Source: Heptranchias perlo
Lineage: Eukaryota
Direction of reading: 5' to 3'
DNA length: 64,000 bases
Assembly: GCF_035084215.1 (NCBI RefSeq)
Contig: NC_090339.1
Coordinates: forward strand, 34,906,001-34,970,000
Shown: positions 20,006 through 61,213 of the stretch, piece by piece
Layout of the letters: each line of letters starts with the position of its first letter
How positions within the stretch are numbered: position 1 is the stretch's first letter
Made by a program: the position numbers and the translations under genes
The notes under the pieces: generated by a model
Seen by the model: the letters and a program-made list of their open reading frames with translations, nothing else
What the model was told of the DNA's origin: nothing
The model's database searches: none

Positions 20006-20768
20006 GCTCGTGCTGTGGCAGTGACAAACATGCACAAATTGGCTTTTTTCAGAACTTTTTGTTAATGTTAATCCAGTTTTGTACAATAGGAAAACTTAGG
20101 GCAACACAGACTGATATAAAAGCTGTCAAACGTAAAAAGGGGTCAGGGAGGATGCCTGAGTCAGACTGGAACAACGAGTGTTCCACATATCCTACAAAGA
20201 CAGGATTAGAAATGTCAGTTTGGAAGAAGTACTGCCTGTCTCTTTCATCAATGACAAATAGTCCAATTCTATTTGCAATCCATCTGTTTTTATTCGTGTC
20301 TATTTTTTCACCAAAAGTTAGCTTGTTGCAGGAATTTTATCCCCATATATTGCTGCATTGAGACTGAAATCCCTGCTTTTACTGATCAATGGTCTCTGAG
20401 GCAACCTGCTGGTCATTTTGTTCCATGCTAATGTTCCATGTGCAGGTACTCTGTTTCCTCTGATTTAGCCAAGTTCCTATCCACTTCAGTAGTTGCCCCC
20501 ATTCCATGTCTTTCAATCTTGTGAGCCAATCTTCTCTAAATATATAACTTTCACTTAGTTCCTCTTGTCCATCAAGTCCCTTATTTCTTCAAAGCAATAG
20601 ACAATAGATTTTTTTCACATATGACCTCTCTTCCATCATGAGATCAGCCAAGCAATCAGAACCAATAATTTCCTTTGTGCTAAGGAAAACTTATATCCTA
20701 CATGTAAATTTTTTAAATCCCAAGGCTACAGCCCAGGCTTCTGTTATAATGTATCAGCAGGAACTGAC

Positions 20769-20919
20769 CTTGTGAAGTCTTCGTCTCCCATCACATGCCG
20801 AGGGACTGGAGAGTATCGCCCTGAAGTAATCGCCGGCAGCGGATATGTGGGTTTGTTCTCAACTCCAGCCATGTAACCCATACCAGAGTTTACATGATTA
20901 TCAGACAGGGCTGAAAATG
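20769..20919 (-). CDS. DLG3: DLG3 coding exon, 151 nt, PDZ2-PDZ3 linker (TFSALSDNHVNSGMGYMAGVENKPTYPLPAITSGRYSPVPRHVMGDEDFTR)
   Basis: gttgcag|CA TTT TCA...TTC ACA AG|gtcagt; phase 1-2, open frame; conserved RYSP.PRH...EDFTR motif. Confidence 0.93.
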
Positions 20920-21878: not shown

Positions 21879-21975
21879 CCAAACGCAGACTATCTAGTGC
21901 CAGTTTTTATCCCTCGCAACAATATTGTCAGTGAGCGAGGTAATGCTGTACAATTGACACGCTGTAAATACTTAC

Positions 21976-22120
21976 TGCTTGCATAGTCAGGAGGTGCGTA
22001 TACTTCATTGAGATGACTGCCACCAGGTTTAGCAACTTTCAAATAAACCATATCCGAGGTGTTCTTGAGAGCAGCCACAGCTTCTTCGTGCCGTACGTCC
22101 TGCAGGCTGATGTTATTGAC
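21976..22120 (-). CDS. DLG3: DLG3 coding exon, 145 nt, end of PDZ2 ([48 protein letters not shown])
   Basis: ggacag|GTC AAT...GCA AGC A|gtaagt; inside ORF 21890..22189. Confidence 0.95.
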
Positions 22121-22822: not shown

Positions 22823-24064
22823 ATAGATGCTGCCTGAGCTGCTGAATGTTTCCAGCATTTTCTGTTTTTATTTGTAAATTAAAAATGTATCATTTCCCTG
22901 GATAAAGGCAAGGATTGACTGATTGTATTGCGCACTGTGTTATTTTCTGTTCAGATGGAATCAGGTCCACGTTATTGTATCATTGTTAGTAAAATAGGCC
23001 TAGACCCCAAATGTGGGCCCCACTTCTGGTATGTTTTTGTCTTCTTGGGACTGGCTTCCAAAGATCCACCAAGTCTCAGAGAGATTACAGATGTGTCCAT
23101 ATTAGTCAGTACATTTGTTGAGATTTTAGTCCTGAAGCTTTTGCACTACTCTGAATTGACACAGTTGCCCCGACTTTCCTCAGGACTTGGGCGGGTGGAG
23201 CCCTAATGTAAAAGTGGCAGGAGTAGAGTAGTGGAGGCGGGAAAATCAGACAGGACTTATAAATGTGTCCTAAAGATGCAACTCTGGCATTCCCGCTGGG
23301 CGCCAGGGGAAAATTCCATCCATCCATTAATGGCTGCCTCTTTTGCCCCTAGCGACCAGGATGCTGGTGAGATACTAGCATCTAGATCCATGGATCGGCA
23401 GGGGTTCCAGGCCTGGATCATGGTCTGGAAGACTCCAGAATAGCTATGAGTATTTTTTTTAAAAATTGGCCCTCTTATAAATGGGTTTGATTAGTTGCAG
23501 TCCTTTACCATGTAAATGGGGCTCATCGTTGGCATCCCCATGCAGCTATGCAGTGCTGCATCTTCATCTTTCCACCCCTCCACCCACCCACCCCCCCTGC
23601 TTGAGGGCACCCGAGATGTGCCCTTATCAATACAAGCACCGATTATTATTTAAATAACATGAACATCCTGACCCTGGATACTTCGGCTGGGCTGGCAGTA
23701 TAAGTCATCAGTGGATAGCAATTCCTGCTCTGCCGCAGTTATGATGGCAGAACGGGATACCAGATTTTCAGTTCCCGTATCTAAAGATGTGATTCTATAC
23801 ATTGATAAGACACAGATTCACAAAATACAAACTGGTGAGGTTTGGATTTTCAACAAACTTTGAACAAAGAACTTAAGTAAACCAAAATCTTAATGCCATC
23901 TGGTCCAGCTTGTTGATTAAATGTATACTTAAGCGCTGGTCATTCCTGTGAATTTGCTTTTTTGGTGTGCAATTTACTATAAAAATATATTTCAGTTTCA
24001 CATTCAGAAAGATCAAGGTAGTGATCAAACATATTGAAGTGTATAAATATGAAACAGCGCTTAC

Positions 24065-24201
24065 AGCAAGCAGCCTATCCCCTGTCTGTAGCCTGCCATC
24101 TTTCTGGGCTGCTCCTCCTTCAATGATTTTGGTGATATAGATGCTGTTATCTCCAGGAATGTGCTGATTCCCAATTCCTCCAGCAATACTGAACCCTAGA
24201 C
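24065..24201 (-). CDS. DLG3: DLG3 coding exon, 137 nt, PDZ2 ([46 protein letters not shown])
   Basis: ctcttag|GT CTA GGG...CTT GCT|gtaagc; inside ORF 23873..24226. Confidence 0.96.
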
Positions 24202-24235
24202 CTAAGAGATAGAGTATGAAAAACAACGTTATTTA

Positions 24236-24560
24236 CTGTAATAAAATCAGAAAATGCTGGAAACACTCAGCATCTGTGGGGAGAGAAACAGAGTTAATGT
24301 TTCAGGTCATCGACCTTTCATCAGAAATGAAAGATGTTACAGATTAACAGTTTTTAAGCAAGTACAGATACAGGGTAAAAGGAGGTGGGAGGGAGGGTGG
24401 GGGGAGAGGGGCAAAGAAAGAATAAAGGGGAAGGTCTGTGATATGGTGGAGGGCAGGAGTGATTAAATGACAAAAGGGATGATGGTGCAAGGCAAAAGGG
24501 GGTGATAATGGGTCAAGTAAAGAAACAAAAGATGGGACCAGGTGAGTTTGTAAATGGTTG
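24236..24560 (-). mobile_element. Penelope-derived short repeat carrying a degenerate hammerhead motif
   Basis: Minus strand ctgatgaaaggtcgatgacctgaaacattaactctgtttctc...cagatgctgagtgtttccagcattttctg; the related 3' end also occurs at ~22824-22875 (+). Confidence 0.6.
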
Positions 24561-28280: not shown

Positions 28281-28572
28281 GCGCTGTTTGTGTTGTGTAT
28301 CCAGAAGCCGTTGCTAATATCCATGTTTTGGAAAGAAACACATACTGTAATGTCACTGCTTTGACTTTGGAAGAAGAGTTACCACTGGTGCTTTTCATGA
28401 GTTGTTACTACATCTCTCCAGGGGAACCAGGTTAAAATAACAAGGAAATCAAGAATTATGTTCCGGGGCTGGATGGGCAGTTAGTTCTACCTTTCTCTTG
28501 TTCCTTTACATGTGTTGCAACACCATTGATCATGTCAGCACTTCCAGGTGAACTCAGCCATTAGAAAGTTAC

Positions 28573-28742
28573 CTTTGGGTCCTTTTAAAAGATTCACTTC
28601 TAATATAGCCTCTGCAGCAGGCTGTCTTCTACGGACTAACAGTCGAACAACAGGTCCCGCCTCCTTCAGCGCCTCCACTGCTTTACTGTGAACGACTTCT
28701 GAAACATCCACATCATTGACTCGCAGCACACAGTCATTGACC
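28573..28742 (-). CDS. DLG3: DLG3 coding exon, 170 nt, end of PDZ1 and start of PDZ2 ([56 protein letters not shown])
   Basis: ttttcag|G GTC AAT...CCC AAA G|gtaact; visible inside ORF 28535..28816; phase 2-1 fits both neighbours. Confidence 0.96.
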
Positions 28743-32129: not shown

Positions 32130-32586
32130 GAGTGATTATCTGACAACAAGAGGCCCCAATGCAGCATGAGCTCTACCTGGAGTTGTAGTGCATACTGAAG
32201 GAGGGAGAACCCATGTGGAGGAAAGAAGAAGCCATTCCAATGGAGGAATTGTCAAAATTGAACGAGAGGGATGATCTCCAACATGACTAATGCAGGAATT
32301 AGCATCCTTCTGTGTTCTGGCAGATTGAGGGATTTGACTGCCCCGTCACTTCAGCTGGGTCATCAACAGCACACCAGTGAACATCACAACTAAGCCCTGT
32401 CATATTCAGCATCCAGCTCCAACCACCACTACCAGCCAACCTGCTTACTAAGAGCACAGAGGGTGCAGCACAGAAAGCTGGTCACCAGTAGTGAAAGCAT
32501 CTCTCAATGCAGGAACACATGCAATGTCTTATTGTACAATAGCTCTTATTGAACAATGTATTTTCTGTAAGTTTCTAGTTAGTTAC

Positions 32587-32711
32587 CCAAGTCGTCCATC
32601 CATAGCAGCGGCCCCACCAGGGATAATTTTGGTTATAAAAATCCCAGGATCATCTGGAACATGAGGATTGTCGATTCCTCCAGCAATGCTAAACCCCAGG
32701 CCTGAGTTACC
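32587..32711 (-). CDS. DLG3: DLG3 coding exon, 125 nt, PDZ1 ([42 protein letters not shown])
   Basis: ccttacag|GGT AAC TCA...CGA CTT GG|gtaact. Contains the GLGF loop; PDDPG and AAAMDGRLG are diagnostic of DLG3 among DLG1-4. Confidence 0.96.
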
Positions 32712-39229: not shown

Positions 39230-39320
39230 GTATGGAGAAAATACTACTGTAATCATTCCAGTTGGAGGAAGCACAATCACTATTACACAATTACATGGAG
39301 AGACAAACTGCACTACTCAC

Positions 39321-39371
39321 ACGCTCCAGGATTATCTCCTCATATTTGTACATTCCATCACTTCCATTAGC
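39321..39371 (-). CDS. DLG3: DLG3 coding exon, 51 nt (ANGSDGMYKYEEIILER), start of PDZ1
   Basis: tttcctag|GCT AAT GGA AGT GAT GGA ATG TAC AAA TAT GAG GAG ATA ATC CTG GAG CGT|gtgagt; matches DLG3 VNGSDGMFKYEEIVLER. Confidence 0.93.
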
Positions 39372-54726: not shown

Positions 54727-54780
54727 ATAAGGTCCAGCATCCAGAGAATCAGCGTTCACAATAATGGGAGGAGGATTTGC
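54727..54780 (-). CDS. DLG3: DLG3 coding exon, 54 nt, phase 0-0 (ANPPPIIVNADSLDAGPY), N-terminal PEST-like region
   Basis: Minus strand reads ttcttacag|GCA AAT CCT...CCT TAT|gtaagt. The peptide matches the ANPPP..VN.DSL motif of DLG-family proteins and is in frame with the next exon. Too short for the ORF track. Confidence 0.9.
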
Positions 54781-56994: not shown

Positions 56995-57415
56995 ATAGTA
57001 TCCTGCATTATCACGCTTATTAACTGTACCTTTATAATATCCTGTCACACCTGTTAACAGCCCATGAACTGCCCTGTCGCTCTTGTTAACAATCAGTTTT
57101 TAACAATCTGCATTATCACATTCATTAAAAAACAATCTATAATATCCTGCACAGTCACACTTGTTAATAACAGTTTTCAAATAGCCTGTACTATCACATT
57201 CATTAACAATAACTTTCTAACATCTTGCACCAGCACATTCAGTAATAACAGTTTTTTAAATAACCTGTACTATGAACACTCATTAATAGCTTTCTAATGT
57301 CCTTTGTCACATCCGTTAACCAGAGCTTTCTGCTATCCTGCTCTGTCACACTTGTTATCAATAGCTTTCTGATGTCCTGCAATGTCACATCTATTAACAA
57401 TAGTTTTCTAGTGCA
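56995..57415. repeat. Degenerate ~39-bp tandem repeat (tcctgcattatcacacttgttaacaatagttttctaa), about 10 copies
   Basis: Periodic tcaca..gttaa(c/t)aa motifs. Confidence 0.8.
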
Positions 57416-58022: not shown

Positions 58023-58745
58023 GTATTATTATTAAAAGACTGGTATAGTATGGGCTCCAGGATCTGAGATCTTGCTCCTAGTATCCTCAACAAAGTTTCT
58101 CAGCAGAGATAAGAGGAAGTAGGTAGGATTCAAAAACAGAGTGTAAAACATTGAATTAAAAAATGAAACTACAGCAGAAATATACACAGTTAACATTTCT
58201 GACAATATCAAGCTTTAACACCAGCAGTGATTTCTGTAGCCTTCAGCTCTGGCTATTGAGCAATGAGTACATTTATATCTGGGGCCTACTCTTCAGATAC
58301 GTTCACTACAGAACTGCAGCTGATAAGGCGGACTGCTTTACAATGTAGTGGTAATTGCTTGGGGAGTGTGGGTAAGAACATTCCAAACCTCAGAGCTTAC
58401 TGCATCACAAATGCAAATTCACATCATTTTTTGACGGTCACAGGGTCATGTAATTATAGCTTCCGCTTCTCTTTCCAGACTCTCCTGTCATTATATGCTT
58501 TTAAAAAGACAGCTAGAACCTCCCACATCTAACCTTACCTGATGTGGGATGCCAACAGAATGAATTTATTCCGAAGCACTTCAGTTACTTAACCCATTTG
58601 GCACTGAATTCTATTTGCATTCCATAGCTAATGTTCTCCCCATACTGTACTTGTCATGTACAAAGAAGTAGGAATGATTGAAGTCTATAGAATATAAAAG
58701 GTTCTACCACAAGACCAAGTTATAGTCCAACGATTTTATTTGAAA

Positions 58746-58784
58746 TCTACAAGCTTTCGGAGGCTTCCTCCTTCCTCAGGTAAA
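58746..58784 (-). ncRNA. Minimal type I hammerhead ribozyme motif, sense to DLG3
   Basis: UUUAC-CUGAGGA-A-GGAGG-AAG-CCUCC-GAAA-GCUU-GUAGA: CUGANGA and GAAA core, 5-bp stem II, palindromic AAGCUU stem III, closing stem I. Confidence 0.75.
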
Positions 58785-58792
58785 TTTCCACA

Positions 58793-58831
58793 TTCACCTG
58801 AGGAAGGAGGAAGCCTCTGAAAGCTTGTGAA
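58793..58831 (+). ncRNA. Minimal type I hammerhead ribozyme motif
   Basis: UUCAC-CUGAGGA-A-GGAGG-AAG-CCUCU-GAAA-GCUU-GUGAA; perfect 5-bp stem I, one G-U pair in stem II. Confidence 0.72.
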
Positions 58832-60468
58832 TTTCAAATAAAATTGCTGGACTACAACTTGGTGTTGTAAAATTGTTTACAACAGGTAAATGTCAGGAAC
58901 TCCTCGAAGCCTACGCATTTATAAATCGCATAACAATACATGGTGATTACAGACAGCCTTTGCAACTGCCCGTTGCCAAGGCAATCACCGTGTTCAGACA
59001 GAGAGGTGTTACCTACAGAACCCCCGAATATACATTCAACAAAAAAAACAAACAGGAAACAAAAACAGAGAGAGGCAGAAACATCCGGAAGGCAGAGAAA
59101 GCCAGCAAATGACCAGTTATATTAAAAACAGATGGCTTTTGTTCGCTGGTGGGCTTACGTGTAGTGTGACATGAACCCAAGATCCCGGTTGAGGCCGTCC
59201 TCATGGGTGCGGAACTTAGCTATCAATTTCTGCTCGACGATTTTGCGTTGTCGTGTGTCTTGAAGGCCGCCTTGGAGTACGCTTACCCGAAGGTCGGTGG
59301 CTGAATGTCCCTGACTGCTGAAGTGTTCCCCGACTGGGAGGGAATCCTCCTGTCTGGCGATTGTTGCGCGGTGTCCGTTCATCCGTTGTCACAGTGTCTG
59401 CATGGTCTCGCCAATGTACCATGCTCTGGGGCATCCTTTCCTGCAACGTATGAGGTAGACAACGTTGGCCGAGTCACAGGAGTATGAACCATGCACCTGG
59501 TGGGTGGTGTCCTCTCGTGTGATGGTGGTATCTGTGTCGATGATCTGGCATGTCTTGCAGAGGTTACCGTGGCAGGGTTGTGTGGTGTCGTGGACGCATG
59601 TTCTCCGCAGCCTTGTTCTCCGCAGCCTTCAACATGTCATCAATGACGATGAAGACCTCGCTATGGCCATCCCCACACCTCCACTACTCGCCTTTAAACA
59701 GCCATCCAACCTCAAACAGACTATCGTTCGCAGCAAATTACCCAGCTTTCAGGAGAACAGCGTCCACGACAGAACACAACCCTGCCACGGTAACCTCTGC
59801 AAGACATGCCAGATCATCGACACAGATACCATCATCACATGAGAGGACACCACCCACCAGGTGCATGGTTCATACTCCTGTGACTCGGCCAACGTTGTCT
59901 ACCTCATACGTTGCAGGAAAGGATGCCCCAGAGCATGGTACATTGGCGAGACCATGCAGACACTGCGACAACGGATGAACGGACACCGTGCAACAATCGC
60001 AGACAGGAGGGTTCCCTCCCAGTCGGGAAATACTTCAGCAGTCAGGGACATTCAGCCACCGACCTTCGGGTAAGCGTACTCCAAGGCGGCCTTCGAGACA
60101 CATGACAACGCAAAATCGTCGAGCAGAAATTGATAGCCAAGTTCCGCACCCATGAGGACGGCCTCAACCGGGATCTTGGGTTCATGTCACGCTACACGTA
60201 AGCCCACCAGCGAACAAAAGCTATCTGTTTTTAATATAACTGGTCATTTGCTGGCTTTCTCTGCCTTCCGGATGTTTCTGCCTCTCTCTCTGTTTTTTTT
60301 TTCCTGTTTGTTTTTTTTGTTGAATGTATATTCGGGGGTTCTGTAGGTAACACCTCTCTGTCTGAACACGGTGATTGCCTTGGCAACGGGCAGTTGCAAA
60401 GACTGTCTGTAATCACCATGTATTGTTCTGTGATTTATAAATGCGTAGGCTTCGAGGAGTTCCTGACA

Positions 60469-60507
60469 TTTACCTGAGGAAGGAGGAAGCCTCCGAAAGC
60501 TTGTAGA
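60469..60507 (+). ncRNA. Minimal type I hammerhead ribozyme motif in the Penelope pLTR
   Basis: UUUAC-CUGAGGA-A-GGAGG-AAG-CCUCC-GAAA-GCUU-GUAGA. Confidence 0.75.
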
Positions 60508-61038
60508 TTTCAAATAAAATCGTTGGACTATAATTTGGTGTTGTAAAATTGTTTACAATTGTCAACCCCAGTCCATCACCGGCATCTCGATATCATGGCT
60601 ACCACAAGACCACAGCAAATATCTAGTGCAAAAAAATGAAGTTCTAATTCCTCTCTGCAATTTAAAGCTTTAATAATGGGAATGTCCAGGTTTTACAAAT
60701 CAAGGAGACTTCTGCCCATATTAACACCTGGTACAGGAGGCTTTGAGGCACAGACCATCCCTGTGGGAGGTCTTCCATGGATCTTATTGAGTATCCACAA
60801 CATGCAGGTTGCAAATAATATTTCATTACTGAGAAAAAAAATCACCCTTTTTAAACAAAAACGACACAATTATTAGAATTAAGTTCACCCAGTCACTAGG
60901 TTCTGTTGTATGTTCTGACCTGAGTAACTAGTGGAGAGAAGCTGGAGTCAGATAGGGACACAGAGGCAGGGAGGTACAGGTGAGTGAGAAAAGAAGCTAC
61001 AATTGAAGAGAACAGCAAGTGAAAGAGAGAGAAAGGTG

Positions 61039-61213
61039 TAATTTTGATTTTGAGTGATAGTGTAAAACGGGTGATAGCAAATAGTCAGCCTGTTCCAAAT
61101 CTCTCCTGATTTTTATTTCCATTGACGTCAATGGAAATAAAAATCAGGAGAGATGTAAAGCAGGCTACCGATTCGGTATCTCCCCGTTTTACACTATCGC
61201 ATAGTCAAAATTA
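61039..61213. mobile_element. Fold-back MITE with a perfect 56-bp central palindrome
   Basis: taattttga/tcaaaatta ends; gatagtgtaaaacggg/cccgttttacactatc; 61099-61154 is a perfect palindrome. Confidence 0.85.

What the first reader, a model, noticed from the sequence alone, without database searches (positions are those of the whole stretch)
58715..58862. Back-to-back sense and antisense hammerhead ribozymes that mask each other in a DLG3 intron
Seen: hammerhead motifs at 58746-58784 (-) and 58793-58831 (+) form the arms of a ~70-bp inverted repeat with a short loop, and a third copy lies at 60469-60507 (+). Stem I differs in a pairing-compatible way (UUUAC/GUAGA versus UUCAC/GUGAA), which supports the fold. 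Known: Penelope-like elements carry minimal type I hammerheads with palindromic stem III that cleave mainly as dimers. Inference: DLG3 pre-mRNA carries one sense ribozyme preceded by its own antisense copy, which should sequester it and may make the insertion tolerable. A plus-strand transcript has two tandem copies 1.7 kb apart that could release a linear or circular RNA.
Basis: partly seen in the sequence, partly recalled or inferred. Interest (0 to 1): 0.7.

Follow-up and report, generated by a model that had tools for sequence, protein, structure and literature searches.

The report
Nested Penelope insertions make mirrored ribozymes
The back-to-back ribozyme motifs in this DLG3 intron are real, but they belong to two nested insertions of a very common Penelope-type jumping gene that leaves the same mirror-image pair at thousands of other sites, so the predicted masking is likely a by-product of how the element copies the start of its own RNA rather than a safeguard for the host gene.

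Summary
Observation confirmed: three minimal type I hammerhead motifs, a 77-bp inverted repeat, and a position in an intron of DLG3 (minus strand). They belong to a 1,881-bp Penelope-like (likely Neptune) insertion with inverted arms, a tail and a 14-bp target duplication, absent from two relatives' contigs. A 94-97-bp copy from a sister subfamily later landed inside the inverted arm and made the adjacent pair. Masking is predicted by folding, but nothing points to selection for it. Such pairs are the family's default: at least 2,788 genome-wide and 30 of 90 sampled insertions. A perfect antisense copy was present before the nested insert arrived. An unmasked sense copy sits in an upstream intron of the same gene. 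A lone minimal hammerhead is not expected to cleave anyway. The informative result is family-wide: short arms end sharply 30-31 nt below a TATA box in two subfamilies with different TATA-to-ribozyme spacing, not at the cleavage site. They are likely run-off cDNAs of the uncut mRNA start, primed on both target strands. The scan has noted this mechanism before on other DNA, including this genome. No cleavage or RNA-end data were available.

The parts
58704..58717 (+). Left target-site duplication of the host insertion (14 bp; its last 4 nt also fit the element end)
   Evidence: Identical to 60599-60612; one copy at the empty site in relatives
58718..58788 (-). 3' piece of the inverted (tail-less) arm of the host insertion; starts at cleavage +33 to +42, shorter than the usual +54 to +61
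   Evidence: 96% to 60465-60544; usual start in 45 of 56 inverted arms
58746..58784 (-). Hammerhead 1, sense to DLG3; predicted cut between 58751 and 58750
   Evidence: identical to hammerhead 3
58777..58785 (+). Left target duplication of the nested insert (9 bp exact; 11 of 12 if read to 58788)
   Evidence: Repeated at 58883-58891/58894; the two minus-arm pieces overlap by 12 nt in the family sequence
58786..58882 (+). Nested 94-97-bp insert from a sister subfamily: hammerhead plus pLTR end up to the short reverse-transcription start; 5' end at TATA position 28-30 of its subfamily, a likely run-off cDNA
   Evidence: 91% to the host copy but 97-99% to dispersed copies; subfamily template
58793..58831 (+). 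Hammerhead 2, antisense to DLG3; G-U at 10.1-11.1; predicted cut 58826/58827
   Evidence: G-U at this pair in 5 of 130 sampled copies
58883..59606 (-). Rest of the inverted arm: pLTR with TATA box at 58923-58918 (DLG3-sense; predicted start ~58893), 3' UTR, broken GIY-YIG coding part
   Evidence: 96.7% to 59752-60476; 92% to an intact unit
59599..60598 (+). Tail-bearing arm: 5'-truncated 3' end of the ORF (linker CX4CX2C motif, GIY-YIG remnant with a stop at 59840 and a later frameshift), 3' UTR, pLTR
   Evidence: 92% to intact unit L156; GIY-YIG E=3.6e-4, just under the Pfam cut-off
60436..60441 (+). TATA box of the pLTR; position 31 counted from it is 60466 (predicted start)
60469..60507 (+). 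Hammerhead 3, antisense to DLG3; predicted cut 60502/60503
60559..60598 (+). Tail (~40 nt) between the two reverse-transcription start sites; in intact units the ORF's ATG lies at its end
   Evidence: tail concept from PMC11167929, PMC8557442
60599..60612 (+). Right target-site duplication of the host insertion
54727..54780 (-). Nearest downstream DLG3 coding exon (context)
   Evidence: tblastn with DLG3 proteins

Best explanation
The pair is made of two nested insertions of one abundant Penelope-like family in a DLG3 intron, and its mirror-image layout is likely a by-product of the element's copying mechanism rather than a selected masking device. Shown: the host insertion has a tail-less inverted arm and a tail-bearing arm between 14-bp target duplications; a 94-97-bp sister-subfamily piece with its own 9-12-bp duplication splits the inverted arm just 5' of its hammerhead; short arms across the family stop 30-31 nt below a TATA box. 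Inferred mechanism: the pLTR holds a Pol II promoter, so the mRNA begins 5-17 nt before the hammerhead. The enzyme nicks both target strands about 12 bp apart and primes at two sites about 55-60 and 95 nt past the cleavage site. Priming at the downstream pLTR gave the long host arms; priming at the 5'-proximal pLTR runs off the RNA start after 95-140 nt, which gave the nested insert and, when it happens on both strands, the common 200-250-bp head-to-head pairs. The template is mostly uncut, since the whole ribozyme is copied. In DLG3 pre-mRNA the element is predicted to fold into a long hairpin that inactivates hammerhead 1, which as a lone minimal motif would likely be inactive anyway; the locus is probably neutral intronic DNA.
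For: Family size: 34,890 exact tail matches, 41,835 exact core matches, 2,788 exact back-to-back pairs with 5-35 nt spacers (lower bound). Tail-selected sample: 56 of 90 have an inverted arm, 42 of 90 have the core on both arms, 30 of 90 are short pairs joined within 45 nt; target duplications 12-13 bp in 31 of 38. 5' ends: 45 of 90 tail arms and 32 of 56 inverted arms fall at -50 to -27 from the cleavage site, only 4 of 90 and 4 of 56 within 8 nt of it. TATA test with subfamilies defined by stem II letters only: TATA at -68/-69 (A) or -75 (B); 39 of 47 short A arms and 62 of 66 short B arms end at TATA position 30 or later, with modes at 31 and 30-31; the distributions differ in ribozyme coordinates (Mann-Whitney p=2e-4; ends at -48..-45 in 3 of 47 versus 18 of 66, p=0.006). 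The same junction occurs in either orientation to the tail (L170 versus L176 and L246), which fits formation anew at each site. Intact 902-aa RT plus GIY-YIG units with pLTR-ORF-pLTR layout exist. Empty site in two relatives: 54 letters where the window has 1,949, a difference of 1,895 = 1,881 + 14. Unmasked sense copy in an upstream DLG3 intron. Literature: inverted pLTR and tail (PMC8557442, PMC3846280); both strands cleaved and extended, two RT starts, uncut RNA the main substrate (PMC11167929).
Against: The start site is inferred from TATA spacing only; no RNA 5'-end data. The second window of the subfamily test (-40..-37) was not significant (18 of 47 versus 15 of 66, p=0.09), 12 of 113 short arms run past position 30, and 3 A-class arms carry B-type upstream sequence. 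Samples are the first matches along one contig, not random. PMC3846280 reads head-to-head palindromes as self-priming on an antisense template instead. The nested insert's duplication is 9 bp exact or 11 of 12, not a clean 12. Orientation bias in introns genome-wide was not tested, so weak selection for masked copies is not excluded.
Confidence: 0.8

Rival explanations
1. One reading: the sense ribozyme would cut DLG3 pre-mRNA, and the insertion survived because an adjacent antisense copy masks it.
For: Folding predicts full sequestration (-124 kcal/mol hairpin; stem II probability about 0), and the antisense arm is transcribed first on the DLG3 strand. Three of the four family insertions seen in 200 kb upstream are inverted pairs. 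Tandem retrozymes are reported as depleted from introns in Xenopus (passages).
Against: Pairs are the default product. The distal perfect antisense copy predates the adjacent one. An unmasked intact sense copy lies in the same gene (L132). Monomers were inactive in PMC4209133 and protein was needed for cleavage in PMC11167929. No second sense copy of this family lies on the DLG3 strand within the window.
Confidence: 0.08
2. Same nested structure, but short arms end before the hammerhead because reverse transcriptase stalls or switches template at the ribozyme fold, or by self-priming on an antisense RNA, not because the RNA starts there.
For: Ends cluster within about 20 nt of stem I; junctions hold snap-back, palindromic fill-ins; PMC3846280 proposes self-priming on an antisense template.
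Against: The upper edge moves by 6-7 nt with the TATA box between subfamilies while the ribozyme is fixed; solo arms without any palindrome end at the same edge (e.g. L165, L222, L264, L278); the ends lie beyond the structure, after it has been copied.
Confidence: 0.1
3. The plus strand is a two-ribozyme cassette that excises a 1.7-kb linear or circular RNA, retrozyme-like.
For: Two plus-strand motifs 1,676 nt apart; dimer cleavage and circles are proposed for PLEs (PMC4209133).
Against: The two copies come from different insertions and subfamilies; hammerhead 2 is predicted to be sequestered on the plus strand too (-116.7 kcal/mol) and has a G-U at 10.1-11.1; the span between them is a 725-bp hairpin, not a repeat unit; the only plus-strand TATA seen in the element (60436) lies downstream of hammerhead 2.
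Confidence: 0.02

Closest known systems
Endonuclease-positive Penelope-like element insertions with inverted pLTR and tail (PMC8557442, passages; PMC3846280, passages)
   Same: Inverted 5'-truncated copy next to a direct copy, 30-40-bp tail on one end, short target duplication, palindromic junctions, TATA and Inr-like motifs in the pLTR, secondary insertion into other PLE copies
   Different: Here a second, very short copy splits the inverted arm; those passages do not describe arms ending at a fixed distance from the TATA box, and PMC3846280 favours self-priming on antisense RNA
Minimal type I hammerheads of metazoan PLEs (Cervera and de la Pena 2014, PMC4209133; abstract, results, discussion read)
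   Same: Core CUGANGA / GAAA / UH, extra nucleotide after A9, G10.1-C11.1, 5-bp stem I, palindromic 15.2-16.2; dual motifs on opposite strands 100-700 bp apart already reported
   Different: Stem II is 5 bp rather than 7-8; the pair here is 18 nt apart; H17 is U; activity untested
Poseidon element of the green anole, PAc (Frangieh et al. 2024, PMC11167929; main text read)
   Same: Two reverse-transcription starts bracket the tail just downstream of the hammerhead; both DNA strands extended; uncut RNA is the main template
   Different: In PAc the ORF starts inside the hammerhead; here the ATG lies at the end of the tail and the linker has a Neptune-type Cys motif; PAc work did not map genomic 5' ends to a start site in the text read
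Non-LTR retrozymes (10.64898/2026.07.22.740005; abstract, introduction, part of methods, passages)
   Same: Short, non-coding, pLTR-derived, type I hammerhead
   Different: Retrozymes are head-to-tail arrays; this is head-to-head with a nested insert and seems to be built anew at each site

Membership tests
EN+ Penelope-like element | Single ORF with RT and C-terminal GIY-YIG endonuclease | tested here: met
   Family units of 902 aa with RVT_1 E=3e-10; window remnant GIY-YIG E=3.6e-4, 21.2 bits against a cut-off of 22.6; Pfam did not list GIY-YIG for the full protein; window copy is 92% to the unit and is truncated and broken
EN+ Penelope-like element | pLTRs in partial tandem and/or inverted 5' copy | tested here: met
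   Inverted arms in the window; pLTR-ORF-pLTR in L156, L157
EN+ Penelope-like element | 30-40-bp tail on one end | tested here: met
   60559-60598 on one arm only; inverted arms start at +54..+61 in 45 of 56
EN+ Penelope-like element | Hammerhead in the pLTR | tested here: met
Neptune clade | CX2-5CxxC motif in the RT-EN linker (PMC8557442) | tested here: met
   CX4CX2C in the family ORF and the window remnant; Nematis shares a linker motif
Neptune clade | RT phylogeny groups with Neptune references | not tested
   No named reference sequences were fetched
Minimal type I PLE hammerhead | Conserved core with variation limited to N7 | tested here: met
   In 130 ungapped copies core positions are 123-130 of 130 invariant, N7 is G 90 / C 38; the search itself allowed at most 5 changes
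Minimal type I PLE hammerhead | Stems I and II kept by pair-preserving changes | tested here: met
   Stem II pairs 1-4 kept in 129-130 of 130; pair 5 in 112 (G-C 77, A-U 20, G-U 15, A-C 18); stem I pairs in 101-123 of 130, including truncated copies; copies are related, so counts are not independent events
Minimal type I PLE hammerhead | G10.1-C11.1 pair and extra base after A9 | tested here: met
   Met in hammerheads 1 and 3; hammerhead 2 has G-U
Minimal type I PLE hammerhead | Palindromic stem III allowing a dimer | tested here: met
   AGCU palindrome; the cofold model swapped stems I and II but did not itself form the stem III duplex
Minimal type I PLE hammerhead | Self-cleavage as a dimer or with protein | not testable with these tools
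   Needs an assay; no raw RNA reads were offered
Rfam hammerhead families | Score at or above the gathering threshold | tested here: not met
   0 matches in the window; not repeated at E-value thresholds
Non-LTR retrozyme | At least two consecutive head-to-tail units each with a hammerhead | tested here: not met
   Copies are head-to-head or separated by a 725-bp inverted repeat

The most novel reading that the evidence does not exclude
The tens of thousands of short arms of this family, the nested insert here among them, are run-off cDNAs of the capped 5' end of the element's mRNA, primed at the 5'-proximal pLTR on one or both target strands. The genome thus records the element's start site to the base, shows that the hammerhead is uncut at integration, and explains Penelope inverted ends by twin priming rather than self-priming.
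Probability: 0.65. Interest if true: 0.55.

Novelty: new member of a known kind. Interest (0 to 1): 0.38.

Why it matters
For DLG3 the locus is probably neutral: a lineage-specific transposon remnant that is predicted to form a long hairpin in the pre-mRNA. It matters as a caution, because sense-antisense ribozyme pairs in such genomes arise by default and are not evidence of regulation. The family-wide result bears on two open questions, how Penelope-like elements make their inverted ends and what their hammerheads do: it predicts an exact RNA start for each subfamily and an uncut template, both testable by cap mapping and by an in vitro insertion assay. I found no such account in the held papers, but most subscription papers are not held, and the scan has recorded the same reading on other DNA.

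Tried and rejected
Rfam scan: no match. Run search: no RNA holder listed and only contigs, so starts, ends and cleavage could not be examined; X1 did not cover the unique right flank; neither is evidence on expression. A peak of 5' ends at the cleavage site was sought and not found (4 of 90 tail arms within 8 nt, against 7 of 90 in the 52 nt downstream). Treating 58709-58868 as one ordinary mini-palindrome was rejected: its arms belong to different subfamilies, and the minus arm continues beyond the insert with a 12-nt overlap. A remobilised mini-element family was disfavoured: spacers differ widely among the 50 pairs listed (one junction recurs 8 times) and that junction faces both ways. The automatic target-duplication finder gave false calls in repeats; only the 38 elements that begin with an inverted arm were used for lengths. 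In one search long arms were cut at the reference edge and inverted arms beyond 1.3 kb could be missed. Lunse et al. 2016 (PMC5785218) is not held; I saw it only as cited in PMC6765202. A paper search for hammerheads in sharks gave nothing relevant. Look-up of earlier findings by sequence gave none. Supplements of the papers were not read; those of PMC11167929 (Fig. S2) and PMC4209133 may bear on 5' ends and on similar motifs.

Full report
Observation. A paired-stem scan finds these three in the window and none in 300 shuffles. The inverted repeat is 77 nt at 90% with a 6-nt loop. Rfam has no match at gathering scores. DLG3 is on the minus strand: the best 120 homologues of the PDZ2 exon are nearly all named DLG3 where named, coding exons map at 54727-54780, 39312-39368, 32586-32711, 28571-28741, 24050-24202, 21968-22120 and 20768-20911, and the SAP102-type first exon lies at window-equivalent 111.0-111.3 kb. 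An L27 exon further upstream on the same strand (C15:35,243,985-35,244,116) implies a longer isoform. The site is therefore intronic, 3.9 kb above the nearest downstream exon.

Anatomy. The pair is part of a 1,881-bp insertion, 58718-60598, between 14-bp duplications. Its tail-bearing plus arm (59599-60598) is 92% identical to the 3' kilobase of an intact unit. Such units encode 902 aa with RT, a CX4CX2C linker and a GIY-YIG region in a pLTR-ORF-pLTR layout, so the family is an endonuclease-positive Penelope-like element, likely Neptune by the linker (PMC8557442, passages; no tree was built). The minus arm copies 59752-60544 at about 96.5% but is split: 58883-59606 and 58709-58788 overlap by 12 nt in family coordinates. 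Between them lies a 94-97-bp plus-strand piece that is 91% identical to the host copy and 97-99% to dispersed copies, flanked by a 9-bp exact (11 of 12) duplication. It is a second insertion, from a sister subfamily, into the first. Contigs of two related organisms of one study (X21, X22) have 54 letters where the window has 1,949, a difference of exactly the element plus one duplication; the record is matched across the two calls by length and depth. A loose end in X18 also reads past the duplication without element sequence. The insertion is thus lineage-specific.

How common is the layout. The family has 34,890 exact matches to a 26-nt tail motif and 41,835 to a 26-nt core motif. A strict pattern finds 2,788 back-to-back pairs with 5-35-nt spacers. 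Among the 29 other loci returned for the insert, 14 are such pairs (a biased set). In 90 elements picked by tail alone (from the first 100 matches on contig C1), 56 have an inverted arm, 42 have the core on both arms and 30 are short pairs joined within 45 nt; 34 of 76 core-bearing tail arms show no inverted core within the 1.3 kb examined, though long elements may have one further out. Inverted pLTRs with a one-sided tail, palindromic junctions and dual hammerheads on opposite strands are in print (PMC8557442 and PMC3846280, passages; PMC4209133, results).

Is it a ribozyme. Across 130 ungapped copies the core is nearly invariant except N7, and recurrent changes in stems I and II mostly keep pairing; related copies are not independent events. 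All features listed for minimal PLE hammerheads in PMC4209133 are present in copies 1 and 3; copy 2 has G-U at 10.1-11.1. That paper saw no cleavage of a single motif and low cleavage of dimers, and PMC11167929 saw cleavage only with the element's protein. Activity here is untested.

Masking. Folding of the DLG3 strand gives a -124 kcal/mol hairpin in which stem II of hammerhead 1 has a probability near 0, against 0.996 when the antisense arm is left out; the whole element is predicted 91% paired. Masking is thus predicted. Four points argue against a selected role. It is the default product of insertion. The perfect distal antisense copy came with the first insertion and pairs more strongly (-121.5 against -105.4 kcal/mol). 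Of four family insertions seen in the 200 kb upstream, one (L132) is a solo arm with an intact core in DLG3-sense orientation inside the inferred L27 isoform, while three are inverted pairs. And a lone minimal motif is not expected to cut. A genome-wide orientation test needs an annotation and was not run, so weak selection is not excluded. The plus-strand excision idea fails on anatomy: separate insertions, hammerhead 2 predicted sequestered (-116.7 kcal/mol), and no upstream plus-strand TATA in the element.

Why pairs meet at the ribozyme. Arm 5' ends pile up just upstream of it: 45 of 90 tail arms and 32 of 56 inverted arms at -50 to -27 from the predicted cut, and 4 of 90 and 4 of 56 within 8 nt of the cut. 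A TATA box lies 65-76 nt upstream of the cut depending on subfamily. I took two subfamilies defined by stem II letters and the sequence downstream (4,032 and 7,566 matches genome-wide; 91 and 95 arms recovered from the first matches on C1). Of these 44 and 29 extend through the TATA box. Of the short ones, 39 of 47 and 62 of 66 end at TATA position 30 or later, with modes at 31 and 30-31, that is at -38/-39 in one and -45/-46 in the other (Mann-Whitney p=2e-4; -48..-45: 3 of 47 versus 18 of 66, p=0.006; -40..-37: 18 of 47 versus 15 of 66, p=0.09). The edge follows the TATA box, not the ribozyme. TATA-to-start spacing of about 30 nt is recalled textbook knowledge. The nested insert's 5' end matches its subfamily at TATA position 28-30. 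With the published two-site, two-strand priming and uncut template (PMC11167929), the simplest model is run-off copying of the mRNA start, on one strand (solo arms such as the nested insert and L132) or both (pairs). The start site itself is inferred, not shown; no raw RNA reads were offered.

Comparison and verdict. The locus is a new member of a known kind. The run-off reading was noted as a lead and tested; the later look-up showed that the scan had reached the same reading on other DNA, twice in this genome. Those notes are unchecked and are not counted as support. Paper searches found no printed account of it within the held library. Interest 0.38: the masking claim is ordinary, while the family-wide start-site result makes the Penelope mechanism testable.

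Noticed in passing
window 58923-58893 (-): The inverted arm keeps its TATA box in DLG3-sense orientation, with a predicted start near 58893, about 4 kb above the exon at 54780; it could act as a weak intronic promoter. Untested.
   Followed up: no
window 60469-60490 and 58793-58815, read on the minus strand: The antisense hammerhead reads as a pyrimidine run ending in CAG followed at once by GTAAAT or GTGAAT, resembling a joined 3'/5' splice site (consensus recalled, not scored). If anything is hidden by the hairpin in DLG3 pre-mRNA it could be these cryptic sites; upstream AGs and the missing +5 G weaken them.
   Followed up: no
window 58883-59606 / 59752-60476: A ~725-bp, 96.7% inverted repeat is predicted to form long double-stranded RNA in the DLG3 pre-mRNA, a likely editing substrate.
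   Followed up: partly
window 24291-24329 (-): A degenerate minimal hammerhead of another family, sense to DLG3 and about 90 nt above the PDZ2 exon; stem II 4/4, stem I 3/5, stem III palindrome broken.
   Followed up: partly
L126 3969-4196, L128 6227-7082, L132 1992-2080, L134 8265-8506: Four more insertions of the family upstream in the DLG3 locus: three inverted pairs and one solo sense arm; L126 has a junction of repeated short fill-ins.
   Followed up: yes
C15:35,243,985-35,244,116 (-) and L135 8234-8410 (-): An L27 exon and a likely further exon show an L27-type long DLG3 isoform in this genome.
   Followed up: partly
L156 2372-5077, L157, L160: Intact or near-intact family ORFs in tandem units point to recent activity.
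   Followed up: partly
window 61038-61210: An unrelated high-copy palindromic repeat (63-nt arms) also abundant in relatives.
   Followed up: no
window 56995-57410: Degenerate 39-nt tandem repeat.
   Followed up: no
window 59599-59628: A 15-nt tandem duplication at the inversion junction of the host insertion.
   Followed up: no
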